Shown piece after piece: positions 1 to 24,000 of a DNA stretch of 64,000 nucleotides. Made by a program: the position numbers. Origin of the DNA: Perna viridis (Eukaryota); the NCBI GenBank assembly GCA_037379345.1, contig CM074511.1, positions 2,852,001 through 2,916,000 on the forward strand. The letters run 5' to 3'. The first letter of the stretch is position 1, and every line of letters starts with the position of its first letter.

Positions 1-3000
1 ATTTTGTCAGGAAACAGATTTTCCTTACTTTCTGATAACCATTATACAGAAATAATTTCTCTTGCATATCAAATGATTAACTTACGTTATTTAGATATGT
101 CATACAACCCCTTACATTATCGAGATATTACGTACTGTAACCTAGAACTGATGCACCACGAACTTGTTTACACTGACGGTTGCTATGGTAATAGCGGTGG
201 AAACAACAGGGATCTTTCTAGAAACAAAACATTGGATAAAACCACTGTGGTTACTTTTCCTTTACCACCAAAACTTACATTCATTCGTCTAACGCATTAT
301 CTTACTGAAAGTATCCCAATAGGAAATAAAATAATTCTGAAGAATGCCGAGAATCTAAAATACGTTGATGTATCTTACATGTCTTTACAGTATTTTCCTG
401 ACATTTCTTCAGAGACCCATTTCAACGTGCAATACCTTGATATGTCCGGTATAGATGCTAATATATTTCTAAATAAAACCTCTGTACCCATATTACAGAA
501 GTTAAAAACTGTCATTGCGCAGAATGTCCGTCTCAGTGAGATTTCCGGAACATTAAAGAAAGTGTTTAGTCTTTTCCCTAATGTACAAAAGCTTGATATA
601 TCTTTTAATAACTTGTGGTACATAGACGGAAATGCGTTTTCAAACAGCAAAATGCTTAATGATTTAACAATTTCACACAATATACTTTCTTTGGTACCTG
701 ACGGAATCATGCAAGTGACAACTATATCAACATTTGACATTAGATACAACAGACTCGAATCCATTAATCAAACTATGCGGAATTGGATGAACCAGCAAGC
801 AAAAAACAGAAAGTTTGTATTGAAAATAAAAGGCAACAGCCTTAAATGTACTTGTGGTACGAAGGATTTTGTAAGATGGTTGTTCGAAAATCCATACAAC
901 ATAATCTTTGATGAAACATCGAAGAATTACCATTGTATTTTAGACAATGGTACGGTTAGTGACACTGCCACTGTAAATAACCATTTCAATCAACTGTTTT
1001 CAGATTGTGACAGCAAAACATGGCTTAAAACTGGAGTCACAACAATTGTCATCCTATTTATCTTAATTTTTATATCGGCTATTGTATTCAACTATCGTTG
1101 GAAAATTATGTTTTGGTTGTATACTAAGTTTAAACGTGTTGTTCAACGTGGTTTGGACAACAAATTAAGGTTTGATGTCTATATATCATACTCCGAAGAT
1201 TATTTTCCGTGGATTAGCACAGTCCTTTTGCCAAAACTGGAAAAAACGTGGAACTTGAATATTTGCATCGAAGACAGAGACTTCATGTTGGGACGACCAA
1301 AATCTGACGAAATTGTGAAAAGTATTTCTGAAAGTAGAAATGCTATTTTTGTTATTTCTGAATCGTCTCAACAAAACCAGTGGAATCAATTTGAAATAGA
1401 AAGAGTAAAACATGAGAAATGCACCAACTTTTTACAAAAAATAATTGTTATAGTTAAAGACACTGCTCAAGTACCACGTGACTTTGATGACATTCTCAAA
1501 AGCATGACTATGATCACGTGGTCTGATGATGAGTTCGGCTGGGATGAGTTACGAATGGCACTATTTTCTGAAAAACTGTAACTAAGTTTAATTTAGATAT
1601 ATATTTTTATATTTATTTTTATTGCTGATATTAATGTGATTTCTGTATTACGGTGACTTTTTCCGAGTGAACTTGACTATGATCACATGGTCAGATAATG
1701 AGTTCCGCTGGGATAAGTTACGGATCGCACTATTTTCTGACAAAATTTAACGAACATTTTCCTTCTCAAAAGTATTTATACGACTTATACGGTTTTGTTC
1801 AGCGTCATGATAGATATTTAGAAAAAAATATTTAACGTCGGTGATTACACATACATGTACAAGTCAACAATTAATATAAGTTTGTAGAGTGTTTAACCGA
1901 AGGCGAAATTTACGACAATTTGGCTAAAGTGAGCTTGCATGGTTGCCAGGCTTGTGACAAAGGAAAGCTCCAAATTTCAGACTGGAAAATAGATGAAACT
2001 CCCGGGCTATGGTAGGGCCTCGAAACTTTGACACATGTGGGATTTAAATCACTGCAGTTTCAACCACGTTATTACAAGTCCAACCACTCGGCAACACTGC
2101 CCCCCCCCACCCCCAAATAATATGAGGCAAATTTAATATGTAAGAAAACGAAGTAAAAGCTAGAGTGGCATTATCATTCTAGTGGACTTGGTGCGTTTTG
2201 TCTGTGGATCGAGTTCATATGTTAAGATACGAAACTAGCTAATTTTATATTTTCATTCAGTTTTTTTTTCATTCGGAACTATTCGGTCATTTTACGTGCA
2301 TAAGTTCCGGTAAAGTTCCACTGGTTGTTACATCCAGTCAGACTGAAATCAGCATCTCATAACTTCTGAAGATATATCTTAGATTCGTGTTTATTAGTGT
2401 AGGAAATAGGCAATTTCACACCAAACTCTATTTACACACAGGCACTTGGGGCATGAATGGTAAGAACTACAGACCCCCCCCCTTTGGTGCCTGAAATGCC
2501 TGTGATTTAATATACTTAGCGTAAATGACAACATAAAATACATTGTTAAAGGCTAAATGTGTATGTACCTATCTCGATTGGAAAGTTAAATGAAATTTCT
2601 TTTATAATTTGCGATCAACATATTTGGCAATACAATATACCTCATGGTTTTTTATTATTAATTTACAAATAGAAATATGAGGGTTTTTTTTTAATTTGTC
2701 CATGAGTATCTGTTGTAAACGGTTGTCCACTCCCTTGTATTTCCTGTTATTCGATCATTAATGGTGATTAAAATTGTTTTCTACATGCGAATCATGAATC
2801 ATACAAAACTAAGGTTAATGTCTCCTTCAATACAATTCTAAAACTTTTTATGAAGAAAATTTTAATAGCATTAGTGCTGGTAATCTGAAAAAGAATGCAA
2901 GTAAAGATTGCTTCGCTATGAATTATTTAAACAAAAATGTAAGTGTTTGTAGTGTCTCTTGTCTTTTGGGAGGTTTCTTTCTTTTCCCGTCTTTGCTTCA

Positions 3001-21000: not shown

Positions 21001-24000
21001 CTATTAAGGATTTGTAAATACCATTTGTTTCATCTGTTGATTTTTCAGTATATTTTGTTTCTGTTAAGGATTCGTTAGTATCCTTTGTTCCTATTTTGGA
21101 TTCGTCACTACACTTTGTTTCAGTAGATGATTCTTTAGTACCCTTTGTTTCTGTTGATGGTTTTTCAGTAGCCTTTGTATTATTTGAAGGGTCTTTAGTA
21201 CCCTTTTCTACTGTTGAAGATTCCGTAGTCCTCTTCGTGTCTGTTGAATCCTTTGTTTCTGTTAAAGATTCTGCAATACCCTTTGTTTCTGTTGAGGATC
21301 CGTCAGTCATGTTTGTTTCTGTTGATGTATGGGCAGCGTTCCTTGTTTCACTTGATTCTTTAGTTCTCTTTGTTTCCGTTAAAAAATCCCTGGTACTCTT
21401 GGTCACGGAAAAAAGTTCATCAGCAGATTTTGTTAAAGGTTCCGCTGAAATGTTTGTTCTATATGAAAGTGTCTCGCCTTGTGTTGTTTTAGTTGAAAGC
21501 TCTTCGAAGGTAGCATCTGTATTCTTTGATTCTGGTATTAATTTTATTTCTATCAAGGTCTCTTCAGTTTCATTTGGGTAAATTGAATCATCTGTTTCTG
21601 TTTTAAATGCAAATGCCTCTAAATTTTCAGACATATATGTTTTGGTGTATTCCGTGTTAGCGTCTACAGCACTGTATTTGCCGTCTTTGGATGAATCTGG
21701 GTAAAGTTTCTTTATTGAATCCTTGTAGATCAAGGCTACGATATCTTTACTAGCATGTGATATTTCTTCAATTTGTTCATAATTTACTGTCTTTTCAATA
21801 TCGTCATTAAAATTGCTTTCAATGGAAACTGATTCTGAATGCTCACTTCCGTTAAATGTGTTCTCTGCTACTGACCGATTTAAGCCTAAATCGTTATCCA
21901 CTGCGTCCTCTTGTTTGAACTTTAAAAATTCTGTAGATTCTAGATTTTCCATTGCCTCTGTTAAAATACCGTCAACGAATTCTGTGCTGTATTTTGACAC
22001 ATCGTCAATATTTTCTCTTTCATATTTGGCTTCCCCGGTGTCAATACCTTCATTTATTTTGTCAGTTGTATATTTTGTCTCAGGATTCATTCCAGTTGCG
22101 TCCTCTGTGTCAATAATTGTTTCACGTTTAATGTCATTTTCAGTTACTTCATTGGTTGTAACCGGAACATTTTTCTCATTAACAGGCACAGATATAATGT
22201 TTTCCTCATTTGAATCCCTCGTATTAAATATTAACTCATTCGGTTGACTGGTAGTTACATGTGTATCGTTTGACCCGTACTCAATGTTTGGTTCCAAATG
22301 TATCTCATTTGTTGCGTCTTTGATGTTTTTTGTCTCGTCTATCTCATCTGATATTTCCAAATTCTTTTCAGAAACTGGATTTGTTTCCGTATTTATCCTG
22401 TCATACTCCGCTAACTGTTTTGTTTTATCAGTTTTAATGTTTGAACTGTTATTCATTCCTGCAAACTTATTTGTGTGGTCTAAATTATTTCTTGTCGCAT
22501 TGTCACTTCCATTCAACCCAGTAGCTGTCGACCCATTGTATTGTGTGGCATGATTTGTTTCAGCAATATTTTTGGCATTGTCTGTGGGCTTTTCCGAATC
22601 TTTCATGAATGGACCATATGTTGCTCCTTTTGGTTTTTTTTTTAATCCAGATGCCATGTACTAGCCAACAAAATTCCTAAAAATAAAAAAAGAGTACAAG
22701 TTGCCAGTAATATATCAAATTTGTTTCCCCAACTAAGTTTAGTATTTGGCTCTTTAGACTAACCAGAATGTTACTTGTAAACCTATAATATCAGGCAGAA
22801 ACCTAACGCGACGAGAACAATAGAACTCGCGCTCTCGTTTAGTTGAGGCGGAAAAGTGAATCCTGTTGTTTATTGCCTTTTCTAATGACCTCAAAAGTTA
22901 CTTTTAGACAAAAAAAAGTTATTATTTTCAATTTAAGTTAGGAATACTCTTAGTAAACATTAAATATCAACAAAAAACAGTATCAAATAATACTAAAATA
23001 AAGCCTCGATCTTTAATTGAAATGATTTTGAGTGGGGGTACTTTTAATCAAAACTGGATCACCCTTTGTGTTTCATCACAAAAAAAAAATCAGGAAAAAA
23101 ATACACAAGTCTGTCAAATGTGTACTACCATCATGCCAAATTTGGGATTTTTTCTAGCTGTAATTATTATAAAGGAAAAATTTTGAGTGAGTCGGGACAT
23201 CGAAGGCTTGCTGATGTACACATGGCATACATTTATTTAAATTTACCTGTATAATTCCGTCAATAAACCTGTCAACAATTAAGTTCAAGGTTACATGTAC
23301 GTGTATGTCGGAAAAGTGCATGGTTTATACCAAAAGTGATTTTTACAATTATACATCTATCAGTGATATTTAATCAAATATTATTTTAGTACACTTTTCA
23401 CTCTATTTACTAAGAGTTGTATTCGCGAAAAATCTGAAAATTTGATTTTAAGGTGTCTGTGTTAGTGCTGAGTGACATAATTTTGGTTGGTCAGTAGACT
23501 ACGCGACATCCCTACAAAACCCCGAAATCAATACAAACCTTTCTTTACCCTGTTATAAAATGTTATTAAGATCAACCTAATCTGGTGTTTGAATCTTTCC
23601 GTAAGGCTGAAAGCATGCATCTCACACCTCTTTTTCATCAAAATTATTGAATCTAATCTATGTACATGTATAAATACTATAATACCCACAATGAAAATTT
23701 CTGTAAGTTTCAAATAGGCTTCTGGAACAGGGTTATGTTGCTACAAGATTGAAGTCATCACTACAGAAGTTCTATGGTCGTCATCATGAACTCGTGGATC
23801 GTTATGGTGTATCCATCTGCACCATGAAAACTGCTTTATTCAGTGGGTCATAGTTTTCCTTTCCTCGTTTGTCTACCCCGGACTGACTTTTTATAAGCAA
23901 CTCGGTGGGTGTTTCTAGAAAAGCAGAGGACGCTTACCCTACCAGTGCACCTGGTCCATGCTCCCAGTTTTTAGTGGAGTCCGAGTTGCTCATTTGCTTT

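What the first reader, a model, noticed from the sequence alone, without database searches (positions are those of the whole stretch)
2927..22657. Two separate ORFs probably form one ~6,238-aa protein via a 29-nt microexon and a GC-AG intron
Seen: the donor G|GTGAGT (7029, phase 1), microexon 6524-6496, GC donor ATG|GCGAGT and acceptor at 5986 (phase 0) join without a stop, giving 15628+29+3060 nt. The product has a basic N-terminus, ~5,000 aa of acidic T/E/S/K repeats, an R/S/P-rich linker (RPTSGGRYRPFSA), ~900 aa of coiled coil and a K/R-rich tail. It has no signal peptide and no globular domain I recognise. Inference: an intracellular giant spacer or scaffold, with a coiled-coil anchor and a very long charged, phosphorylatable disordered arm, rather than a secreted mucin.
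Basis: partly seen in the sequence, partly recalled or inferred. Interest (0 to 1): 0.7.

Follow-up and report, generated by a model that had tools for sequence, protein, structure and literature searches.

The report
Giant repeat protein gene, probable microexon join
Two very long open reading frames on the minus strand are real coding exons that most likely belong to one animal gene for a giant, acidic, disordered repeat protein ending in a helical rod and a basic tail, but the tiny 29-base exon proposed to join them is plausible rather than proven.

Summary
The ORFs are 6992..22660 and 2927..6064. The donor G|GTGAGT is at 7029, the 29-nt exon at 6524-6496, the donor ATG|GCGAGT at 6495 and the acceptor at 5986. 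The sum is 15628+29+3060 nt, or 6,238 codons plus a stop.

Both ORFs are coding beyond chance: 0 stops against 367 and 77 in shuffles.

One gene is likely:
- 7029 is the only strong donor in 24 kb and lies 12 codons before the ORF's stop.
- Of the 8 best acceptors, only the 2 used by the model carry a YTAAC branch point, against a 4.5% background.
- The 29-nt exon is the best of 47 in-frame connectors.

With a realistic GC-donor penalty, an equally good connector appears in 103 of 1000 shuffles and 19 of 72 control windows. The join still needs cDNA.

No relative and no Pfam domain were found exon by exon. No signal peptide or membrane segment was found. The repeats conserve frame and composition, not sequence.

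Best reading: a lineage-specific, rod-anchored polyanionic brush or spacer. The function is inferred only.

The parts
22655..22657 (-). Proposed start codon ATG. An in-frame TAG lies two codons upstream, and an acceptor-like TTTTTATTTTTAG| lies about 24 nt upstream, so any upstream exon would be 5' UTR.
   Evidence: sequence read
7030..22657 (-). Exon 1, 15,628 nt of coding sequence (5,209 codons plus 1 base).
   Evidence: 0 stops in frame against 62-506 in the other five frames and 367 in shuffles. Translation.
21398..22657 (-). Unique N-terminal region, residues 1-420. The first 12 residues are net +4; the region as a whole is net -42. Two predicted helices lie at residues 217-240 (22009-21938) and 293-318 (21781-21704).
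   Evidence: no Pfam family
8978..21397 (-). Acidic T/E/S/K repeat region, residues 421-4560. The base unit is 30 nt (10 aa, consensus about S-T-E-T-K-G-T-E-E-S), with 90-nt super-units. Composition: E 18.4%, T 18.2%, S 15.0%, K 10.8%; net charge -414.
12151..19497 (-). Young higher-order repeat of 2,115 nt (705 aa), about 3.5 copies at 98.4% identity without gaps. Further copies at 93-98% reach down to about 9868.
8494..8684 (-). A second, different 30-nt repeat (6.4 copies, 85% matches), read as the QNVENHSSG-type units in the degenerate stretch of residues 4561-4880.
7031..8017 (-). Non-repetitive tail of exon 1, residues 4881-5209, net charge 0. Its last 130 residues hold 5 of the exon's 12 RxxS motifs, including RRLS and RPTSGGRYRPFSA.
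   Evidence: no Pfam family; no relatives
7024..7029 (-). Donor GTGAGT after AACG, phase 1, 12 codons before the ORF's TAG (6994-6992).
   Evidence: It is the only GT donor scoring 7.0 bits or more on the minus strand between 2000 and 26000.
6551..6555 (-). TTAAC branch-point consensus. The branch A at 6552 lies 28 nt before the acceptor of the 29-nt exon.
   Evidence: letters
6496..6524 (-). Proposed 29-nt microexon (phase 1 to phase 0), preceded by the acceptor TTTCATTTTTATTTACAG|.
   Evidence: Best of 47 stop-free connectors, but not beyond chance under a realistic GC penalty.
6490..6495 (-). Proposed GC donor GCGAGT after ATG. It matches the consensus at -1 and at +3 to +6, and mismatches at -2 and +2.
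6015..6019 (-). TTAAC branch-point consensus. The branch A at 6016 lies 30 nt before the exon 3 acceptor.
   Evidence: letters
2927..5986 (-). Exon 3, 3,060 nt including the stop TAA (1,019 codons). Acceptor ATACAG|, phase 0. The first ATG is 11 codons inside the exon (5953).
   Evidence: 0 stops against 35-103 in other frames and 77 in shuffles
3275..5914 (-). Alpha-helical rod, exon 3 residues 25-904, with 4 prolines in 880 residues.
   Evidence: AlphaFold2 single-sequence secondary structure at low confidence, mean pLDDT 42. Hydrophobic periodicity at 3.5 residues has z = 6.5 and is reached by 0 of 200 shuffles.
2930..3346 (-). K/R-rich C-terminal tail, exon 3 residues 881-1019, net +24. 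The model shows it as coil from residue 905. KKRKKR lies at 3118-3101.
2651..2656 (-). First AATAAA downstream of the stop, about 270 nt away: a candidate polyadenylation signal.
   Evidence: motif scan only

Best explanation
The two ORFs are coding exons of one minus-strand animal gene, most likely joined through the 29-nt exon 6524-6496 and a GC-AG intron.

In this assembly the product is about 6,238 aa and has no signal peptide or membrane segment. In order it has:
- a short basic N-terminus;
- about 420 unique acidic residues;
- about 4,100-4,450 residues of 10-aa S/T/E/K units, arranged in young 705-aa higher-order repeats;
- an RxxS-rich hinge;
- a helical rod of about 880 residues;
- a K/R-rich tail of about 139 residues containing KKRKKR.

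Proposed mechanism (inferred, not shown): the rod self-associates and the basic tail binds a polyanionic surface such as nucleic acid or chromatin, microtubules or acidic lipid. Alternatively, the tail acts as a nuclear import signal. The very long, negatively charged, phosphorylatable disordered arm projects outward as an entropic and electrostatic brush or spacer.

What is shown: selection keeps the arm's reading frame, length and composition, but not its exact sequence. Skipping the 29-nt exon would shift the frame and stop 10 codons into exon 3. Inclusion therefore decides whether the arm carries its anchor.
For: Coding reality:
- There are no stops in 5,209 and 1,019 codons, against 367 and 77 in shuffles.
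- None of the 105 homopolymer runs of 5 or more bases breaks the frame.

One gene:
- 7029 is the only donor scoring 7.0 bits or more in 2000..26000, and it lies 12 codons before the stop. Thirteen of the window's 18 such minus-strand donors belong to a satellite.
- Only 962 nt separate the TAG of ORF1 from the exon 3 acceptor.
- Charged, coding-like sequence runs from the acceptor through 11 codons before the first ATG of exon 3.
- YTAAC branch points occur at 2 of the 8 best acceptors, and those are exactly the two the model uses. The background is 225 of 5,053 AG sites.
- The 29-nt exon ranks first of 47 connectors (7.5 bits against -0.6 for the next). It is reached by 3 of 300 shuffles with a mild GC penalty.
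- Direct joins need poor acceptors: the best is -3.6 bits.

Architecture:
- composition, charge and hydropathy;
- helices 25-904;
- 3.5-residue periodicity with z = 6.5;
- no Pfam family reached its curated cut-off in any scanned part.

Repeat evolution:
- pN/pS is 1.58 among the higher-order copies.
- Differences by codon position are 178/155/154, and 35 codon differences are synonymous against 291 non-synonymous, among 71 distinct units.
Against: - GC-AG introns are under 1% of animal introns (PMC7072748, passages).
- With a 6.6-bit GC penalty the connector scores 3.9 bits. That score is reached by 103 of 1000 shuffles and 19 of 72 control windows.
- The splice scores come from a generic matrix I wrote from recalled consensus frequencies, not one trained on this species.
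- An equally scored acceptor at 6809 would end the protein after 2 codons.
- ATTAAA and AATAAA motifs exist in the gap.
- Exon 3 has its own ATG at 5953.
- No transcript, orthologue or annotated model could be consulted. All homology searches returned nothing, so the function rests on architecture alone.
- The helical model has low confidence, with a mean pLDDT of 42.
- The repeats show no purifying selection on sequence. That also fits a young, nearly neutral array.
Confidence: 0.5

Rival explanations
1. There are two separate genes in tandem. The repeat protein ends either at the TAG at 6992 or after a short terminal exon (for example the acceptor at 6809, with a stop after 2 codons). The rod-and-tail protein is made from its own promoter in the ~1-kb gap, starting at the ATG at 5953.
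For: - Acceptor 6809 scores the same as acceptor 6524, 4.2 bits, and gives a stop after 2 codons.
- ATTAAA lies at 6887, 6859 and 6462, and AATAAA at 6381.
- Exon 3 has an in-frame ATG 11 codons in.
- A chance connector of the observed quality is common.
Against: - About 1 kb would have to hold a 3' UTR, a promoter and a 5' UTR, in a window that otherwise holds one other recognisable gene in 64 kb.
- Acceptor 6809 has no YTRAY branch point at -18 to -45, while 6524 and 5986 have YTAAC.
- The rod ORF stays open and coding-like upstream of its first ATG, right up to a good acceptor.
Confidence: 0.25
2. It is one gene but joined in another way. Possibilities are an unrecognised non-canonical path, alternative isoforms in which the 29-nt exon is often skipped (giving an arm without rod or tail), or a one-base assembly error in the A5 run at 5986-5982 that hides a direct in-frame join from 7030 to 5986.
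For: - A direct join is out of frame by one base and stops after 10 codons.
- Exon 3 starts with a run of five A.
- The microexon is not statistically secure.
Against: - 105 homopolymer runs of 5 or more bases, up to 10 long, lie in 18.7 kb of open frame without one frameshift, so per-base accuracy is high.
- Acceptor 6524 has a strong pyrimidine tract and a TTAAC branch point.
- No other connector scores above -0.6 bits.
Confidence: 0.17
3. It is a secreted mucin-like or biomineralisation matrix protein, whose S-x-E rich acidic repeats would be phosphorylated in the secretory pathway.
For: S+T make up about 33% of the repeats, with 239 S-x-E motifs and 82 N-x-S/T sequons in exon 1. The link between S-x-E and the secretory kinase is recalled, not tested.
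Against: - The N-terminus is charged and has no hydrophobic core; the best 19-residue hydropathy is 0.61.
- An in-frame stop upstream of the ATG and downstream of the nearest acceptor argues against a hidden signal-peptide exon.
- Proline is only 2.9%.
- No mucin-type domain is found in Pfam.
- The C-terminal rod and KKRKKR tail are intracellular-type features.
Confidence: 0.04
4. It is a coding-looking minisatellite with no function: a young tandem array that happens to stay open.
For: - No purifying selection on sequence is seen.
- The higher-order copies are 98.4% identical.
- Given the 54 variable sites among three copies, P(no stop) is only 0.04.
Against: - The frame is open across old, diverged units (60-70% matches, about 5% indels) and across about 1,070 unique flanking codons, plus 1,019 non-repetitive codons in exon 3.
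- The other five frames hold 62-506 stops.
- Unit spacings that are not multiples of 10 aa are nevertheless all in frame.
Confidence: 0.04

Closest known systems
Ki-67 (vertebrate chromosome-periphery protein)
   Same: Ki-67 is a large, charged, intrinsically disordered protein. Its tandem repeats are all encoded in one huge exon. Its C-terminal basic domain binds the surface (chromatin) while the rest projects outward as a molecular brush (PMC8354752, passages read). Here a giant single exon likewise encodes the repeats, a basic C-terminal tail follows, and the repeats show constraint on bulk properties rather than sequence.
   Different: No FHA domain, Ki-67 repeat or LR domain was found by Pfam. 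The arm here is strongly acidic (net -414) rather than basic. An 880-residue helical rod lies between arm and tail. The unit is 10 aa rather than about 120 aa. There is no sequence relationship.
Neurofilament M/H sidearms (intermediate filaments with disordered tails)
   Same: A helical rod builds or anchors the core, and a long, charged, phosphorylatable disordered tail forms a brush thought to set spacing. (For PMC11151108 and PMC11626179 I saw only the search listing and the start of each abstract.)
   Different: The orientation is reversed: the arm here is N-terminal. No intermediate-filament rod family matched in Pfam at E up to 0.1. The rod is about three times as long and the arm roughly ten times as long (this comparison is recalled, not taken from a call).
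Secreted gel-forming or tethered mucins
   Same: They have very long S/T-rich tandem repeats encoded in one giant exon (recalled).
   Different: Here there is no signal peptide or membrane segment, proline is low (2.9%), E and K are high, there are no mucin domains, and the C-terminus is an intracellular-type rod and basic tail.
GC-AG introns and frame-shifting microexons as a splice class
   Same: The GC donor matches the consensus at -1 and at +3 to +6, has an AG acceptor, and is read as a U2-type intron (PMC7072748, passages). The short exon is flanked by a strong acceptor and a branch point.
   Different: Use of the site is not shown. The exon's length is not a multiple of three, so skipping it would truncate the protein rather than alter a surface loop.

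Membership tests
Mucin (secreted or tethered) | N-terminal signal peptide or membrane anchor | tested here: not met
   The first 12 residues are net +4 and the N-terminus has no hydrophobic stretch (translation). The best 19-residue Kyte-Doolittle mean is 0.61 in exon 1 and 0.73 in exon 3. This is a hydropathy scan only; no dedicated predictor was available.
Mucin (secreted or tethered) | Pro/Thr/Ser-rich repeat domain plus flanking mucin-type domains (vWD, SEA, cystine knot) | tested here: not met
   Proline is 2.9% while E is 18.4% and K 10.8%. No Pfam family passed its cut-off in any scanned slice. Stretches 12152-14999 and 19001-19498 were not scanned, but they are copies 94-98% identical to scanned stretches.
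Ki-67 | FHA domain, Ki-67 repeats with the conserved motif, and a C-terminal LR chromatin-binding domain | tested here: not met
   No Pfam match. The features are as described in PMC8354752 (passages).
Intermediate filament / neurofilament | Intermediate-filament rod domain | tested here: not met
   Pfam scan of the whole 1,045-aa ORF found 0 families at E up to 0.1.
CCDC154-like coiled-coil proteins (the Atlas lead) | Match to the CCDC154 family profile | tested here: not met
   The Atlas score was 0.87, a lead only, with 157 shared features. Pfam found nothing in exon 3.
Dimeric alpha-helical coiled coil (structural class) | Long helices with heptad-compatible hydrophobic periodicity | tested here: met
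   Helices span residues 25-904 with short breaks, at low pLDDT. Power at period 3.5 has z = 6.5 and is reached by 0 of 200 shuffles. Period 3.6 scores almost the same (z = 5.9), so a heptad is not separated from a plain amphipathic helix.
Dimeric alpha-helical coiled coil (structural class) | Self-association of the rod | not testable with these tools
   This needs a biophysical experiment. See Tried and rejected for the one job that was run.
GC-AG U2-type intron | GC at +1/+2 with otherwise strong donor consensus, an AG acceptor and a branch point | tested here: met
   The donor is ATG|GCGAGT (-1 G, +3 G, +4 A, +5 G, +6 T). The acceptor is ATACAG| with TTAAC at -30. Position -2 is T, not the preferred A.
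GC-AG U2-type intron | The junction is actually used in transcripts | not testable with these tools
   No transcript or eukaryotic genome collection was on hand.
A-kinase anchoring protein (lead from the N-terminal helices) | Amphipathic helix that binds the RII dimerisation/docking domain | not testable with these tools
   Helices are predicted at residues 217-240 and 293-318. The hydrophobic-pair spacing is recalled from memory. No Pfam match was found.

The most novel reading that the evidence does not exclude
The gene encodes a lineage-specific, >6,000-aa 'tethered polyanion', and a 29-nt microexon with a weak GC donor acts as a binary switch. Inclusion attaches a ~5,200-residue acidic, phosphorylatable brush to a ~130-nm helical rod and a basic, nuclear-import-like tail. 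Skipping shifts the frame and releases an untethered arm, or triggers transcript decay. The RxxS-rich hinge just before the junction would add kinase control.
Probability: 0.12. Interest if true: 0.6.

Novelty: new variant of a known kind. Interest (0 to 1): 0.4.

Why it matters
If the join is real, this is one of the longest single coding exons (15.6 kb) and one of the largest proteins of its genome. Automatic annotation would probably split it in two, because the connector is a 29-nt exon with a non-canonical donor.

It would also be a clean natural example of a disordered arm kept for its length, charge and open frame rather than its sequence, fused to a rod and a basic anchor. That makes it useful for testing ideas on entropic and electrostatic brushes.

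If the join is wrong, there are simply two unremarkable orphan genes side by side.

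Tried and rejected
**Homology, searched exon by exon**
- Exon 3 against 1.84 billion representative proteins: 0 hits at E up to 0.001.
- Exon 3 against longer proteins (1785-5000 aa): none of 5,477 candidates.
- Exon 1 residues 4700-5209 against proteins of 2871-9137 aa: none of 1,166 scored.
- The 329-aa exon 1 tail against proteins of 577-2000 aa: none of 2,344 candidates.
- Solved structures by sequence: only three VgrG chains at E = 0.68, which is noise.
- ESM Atlas: the best scores were 0.87 (exon 3, including a CCDC154 cluster) and 0.80 (tail, 'Treacle'). 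Both are in the range that shuffled proteins reach.
- The 29-nt exon is too short to search.
- The joined three-exon product was never assembled, translated as a whole, searched or folded.

**Self-association**
- Complex prediction with two copies of exon 3 residues 614-904 returned 'no answer' (score 0.00, controls not run). It says nothing either way.

**Structure models**
- Both AlphaFold2 single-sequence models had low confidence (mean pLDDT 42.2 and 37.4). I used only their secondary structure and ran no fold search.

**Selection tests on the repeats**
- They gave no sign of purifying selection, so they cannot serve as evidence of a constrained sequence.

**RNA genes**
- Rfam (gathering thresholds) and ARAGORN over the whole window found 0 matches.

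**Literature**
- A search for bivalve / giant protein / coiled-coil / disordered gave 87 papers holding at least 3 of the 4 terms. None of the 15 listed was relevant by title.

**Not done**
- I did not scan genome contigs. It holds only bacteria and archaea and cannot contain this animal gene.
- The phage, plasmid and E. coli collections were not queried, for the same reason as genome contigs.
- The taxon was not determined.

- One Pfam call failed on a frame slip. It was repeated with corrected coordinates.

Full report
**1. The observation**

The minus strand carries two stop-to-stop open frames, 6992..22660 (5222 aa) and 2927..6064 (1045 aa) (translations).
- Exon 1 runs from the ATG at 22657 to 7030 and is followed by GTGAGT (AAC G|GTGAGT). 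That is 15,628 nt, so the donor is in phase 1.
- TTTCATTTTTATTTACAG| precedes 6524.
- The 29 nt from 6524 to 6496 are followed by GCGAGT (ATG|GCGAGT).
- ATACAG| precedes 5986, which is in the frame of the second ORF (phase 0).
- The stop TAA is at 2929-2927.

The sum 15628+29+3060 gives 6,239 codons including the stop. The codons formed by the carried-over base and the 29-nt exon hold no stop. The window holds no N.

The joined product was not assembled, searched or folded, so nothing here tests the whole protein as one chain.

**2. Are the frames more than chance?**

Yes. Exon 1 has 0 stops in its frame, against 329, 506, 164, 407 and 62 in the other five frames and a mean of 367 in composition-matched shuffles. 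Exon 3 has 0, against 35-103 in the other frames and 77 in shuffles.

Exon 3 and about 1,070 codons of exon 1 are not repetitive, so the open frame is not merely a copied stop-free unit.

In the repeats, TRF reports about 5% indels among the 30-nt units. The spacing of successive E-T-K words includes many values that are not multiples of ten residues (15, 13, 17, 7, 33...). All of these indels have kept the frame.

The two exons hold 105 homopolymer runs of five or more bases, up to ten long, without a frameshift. That also argues for high base accuracy in the assembly.

**3. Anatomy of exon 1**

- The first 12 residues are net +4, but residues 1-420 are net -42. The 'basic N-terminus' is therefore very short.
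- Residues 421-4560 are 18.4% E, 18.2% T, 15.0% S and 10.8% K, with net charge -414.
- The base unit is 30 nt (10 aa, consensus near S-T-E-T-K-G-T-E-E-S), with 90-nt super-units.
- On top of that lies a young higher-order repeat of 2,115 nt (705 aa). Positions 19497-12151 align to themselves at an offset of 2,115 nt with 98.4% identity and no gaps. Further copies at 93-98% reach about 9868.
- A different 30-nt repeat lies at 8494-8684.
- The last 329 residues are unique and net neutral.
- An AlphaFold2 single-sequence model of residues 1-420 is coil apart from helices at 217-240, 293-318 and 336-347. Its mean pLDDT is 37.
- No Pfam family passed its cut-off in any slice. The best was Extensin_1 at 18.6 bits against a cut-off of 105.

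**4. How the repeats evolve**

Among the young higher-order copies, pN/pS is 1.58, and differences fall 56/90/53 on codon positions 1/2/3.

Among 71 distinct 10-aa units (of 147 found), differences from the consensus fall 178/155/154. Only 35 of 326 differing codons are synonymous, against 23.8% expected for single random substitutions.

There is therefore no sign that the exact residue sequence is under purifying selection. What is kept is the open frame, the length and the composition. That fits a part whose bulk properties matter. It also fits a young array drifting under a bare 'no stop' constraint.

**5. Anatomy of exon 3**

- The AlphaFold2 single-sequence model is helical from residue 25 to 904 with short breaks, and coil from 905 to 1019. 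Confidence is low, with a mean pLDDT of 42, so only the secondary structure is used.
- The 880 rod residues hold 4 prolines.
- Hydrophobic residues show strong local periodicity at 3.5 residues (z = 6.5, reached by 0 of 200 shuffles), but not at 2, 3, 4.5 or 7. A slice of the exon 1 repeats shows none.
- Period 3.6 scores almost as high (z = 5.9). The test therefore supports long amphipathic helices compatible with a coiled coil, but does not prove a heptad.
- The last 139 residues are 20.9% K and 7.9% R, net +24, and contain KKRKKR at 3118-3101. Reading that as a nuclear import or polyanion-binding motif is recall, not a test.
- No Pfam family was found.

**6. Is it one gene?**

*For*
- (a) On a generic donor matrix, 7029 is the only GT donor of 7.0 bits or more on the minus strand between 2000 and 26000. 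It lies 12 codons before the ORF's stop. The window has 18 such minus-strand sites, but 13 are copies within a 55-nt satellite at 41963-43781.
- (b) The gap from TAG to acceptor is 962 nt. It would otherwise have to hold a 3' UTR, a promoter and a 5' UTR.
- (c) Exon 3 stays open and coding-like for 11 codons between the acceptor and its first ATG.
Only 225 of 5,053 AG sites elsewhere in the window have one in the -18 to -45 range.
- (e) Between donor 7029 and acceptor 5986 there are 47 stop-free phase-1-to-phase-0 connectors.
- (f) Direct joins are poor. Of 949 frame-compatible pairs from 63 donors and 47 acceptors, the best pairs 7029 with an acceptor of -3.6 bits.

*Against*
- GC-AG introns are under 1% of animal introns, and GT-AG are 98.3% (PMC7072748, passages read).
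- With a mild 3-bit GC penalty, only 3 of 300 shuffles match the connector. With a 6.6-bit penalty it scores 3.9 bits, and 103 of 1000 shuffles and 19 of 72 real control stretches do as well or better.
- The acceptor at 6809 scores the same as 6524 and would end the protein after 2 codons. It has no branch-point consensus, however.
- ATTAAA and AATAAA motifs occur in the gap, as they do everywhere in this AT-rich DNA.
- My matrices are generic and were written from recalled consensus frequencies.

*My estimate:* about 0.7 that the two ORFs are one transcription unit, and about 0.5 that they are joined exactly as proposed.

**7. A consequence of the model**

The connector is 29 nt, so skipping it joins phase 1 to phase 0 and runs into a stop after 10 codons of exon 3. 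If the weak GC donor is used only sometimes, the gene would make either an arm with its rod and tail or an arm alone. This is inference.

**8. Relatives**

None were found. Exon 3 against 1,835,955,588 representative proteins gave 0 hits at E up to 0.001. Word-seeded searches for longer or fused forms of exon 3, and for proteins carrying the exon 1 tail, also gave none.

These tools say themselves that such blanks are weak evidence. The length classes searched were 1785-5000, 2871-9137 and 577-2000 aa. Solved structures and the ESM Atlas gave only noise-level leads.

Orthologues in close relatives therefore remain unchecked, and the source organism was not identified.

The neighbour at 1..1581 (+) is the C-terminal part of a Toll-like receptor (LRR_8 at 7.5e-9, TIR at 2.2e-13). 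Together with the spliceosomal signals, this makes the source an animal.

**9. What it most likely does**

*Shown*
- There is no signal peptide or membrane segment by hydropathy.
- An in-frame stop lies between the nearest upstream acceptor and the ATG.
- The arm is huge, acidic, rich in S/T and predicted to be unstructured.
- An RxxS-rich hinge, a long helical rod and a basic tail follow it.

*Inferred*
- The rod self-associates and the tail binds a polyanionic surface or carries the protein into the nucleus.
- The arm projects as an entropic and electrostatic brush.
- The arm has a contour length of about 1.9 um at roughly 0.36-0.38 nm per residue. The rod is about 130 nm long at roughly 0.148 nm per residue. 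Both figures come from textbook values, not from a call.
- The arm's charge could be tuned by phosphorylation: 341 [ST]xx[DE] and 239 SxE motifs are present. Linking these motifs to particular kinases is recall.

*Closest functional analogues*
- Ki-67: repeats in one huge exon, a C-terminal basic chromatin anchor, and a brush projecting from the surface (PMC8354752, passages).
- Neurofilament sidearms (search listing and abstract starts only).

It is a member of neither family, since their defining domains were sought and not found.

**10. Verdict**

- The one-gene interpretation is likely, but its key connector is unproven.
- The functional reading is reasonable, but rests on architecture only.
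- This is an orphan giant gene of a familiar general kind (a giant-exon repeat protein with an anchoring end), with an unusual and annotation-defeating junction.
- Interest is moderate.

Noticed in passing
window 1-1581 (+): An ORF open at its 5' end (526 aa) carries leucine-rich repeats and a TIR domain (LRR_8 at 7.5e-9, TIR at 2.2e-13). It is the C-terminal part of a Toll-like receptor gene, convergent with the giant gene. Their stop codons are about 1.3 kb apart.
   Followed up: partly
window 42422-43828 (consensus-donor hits span 41963-43781): A satellite with a 55-nt period (9 and 16.4 copies in two TRF rows, 72-79% matches). On the minus strand each unit contains TAACAG|GTAAGACA. That accounts for 13 of the window's 18 minus-strand consensus-donor hits and would mislead any splice-site scan.
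   Followed up: partly
window 41382-41870 (-), 50809-51171 (-), 57934-58323 (-): Three short ORFs share related sequence (for example ...FRYIDDVLSL...IHRIYP...) and look like decayed copies of an interspersed repeat. Pfam found no family. My impression that they resemble a mobile-element protein is recall only.
   Followed up: partly
window 22009-21938 and 21781-21704 (-): Two predicted amphipathic helices lie in the otherwise unstructured N-terminal region, at exon 1 residues 217-240 and 293-318. Their hydrophobic pairs recur every four residues, which from memory resembles the kinase-anchoring helices of AKAPs. Together with the RRLS/RxxS cluster near the end of exon 1, this is a lead worth testing. 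No Pfam match was found.
   Followed up: no
window 8118-22247 (+): Antisense ORFs of 154-493 aa recur inside the repeat region, several at 2,115-nt spacing. They are by-products of the repeat: one antisense frame has only 62 stops in 15.6 kb. They are not separate genes.
   Followed up: yes
window 22780-22860 (-): A short CG-containing stretch (...CGAGAGCGCGAGTTC...CGTCGCG...) is followed by GT-type donor-like sites, about 100 nt upstream of the acceptor-like TTTTTATTTTTAG| before the start codon. It is a possible non-coding first exon and promoter region of the giant gene.
   Followed up: no
window 38195-38391, 40878-41007, 58604-58773, 62860-63336: Further short tandem arrays (periods 32, 34/67, 34 and 238 nt) lie in the gene-poor remainder of the window. 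Rfam and tRNA scans of the whole window found nothing.
   Followed up: no
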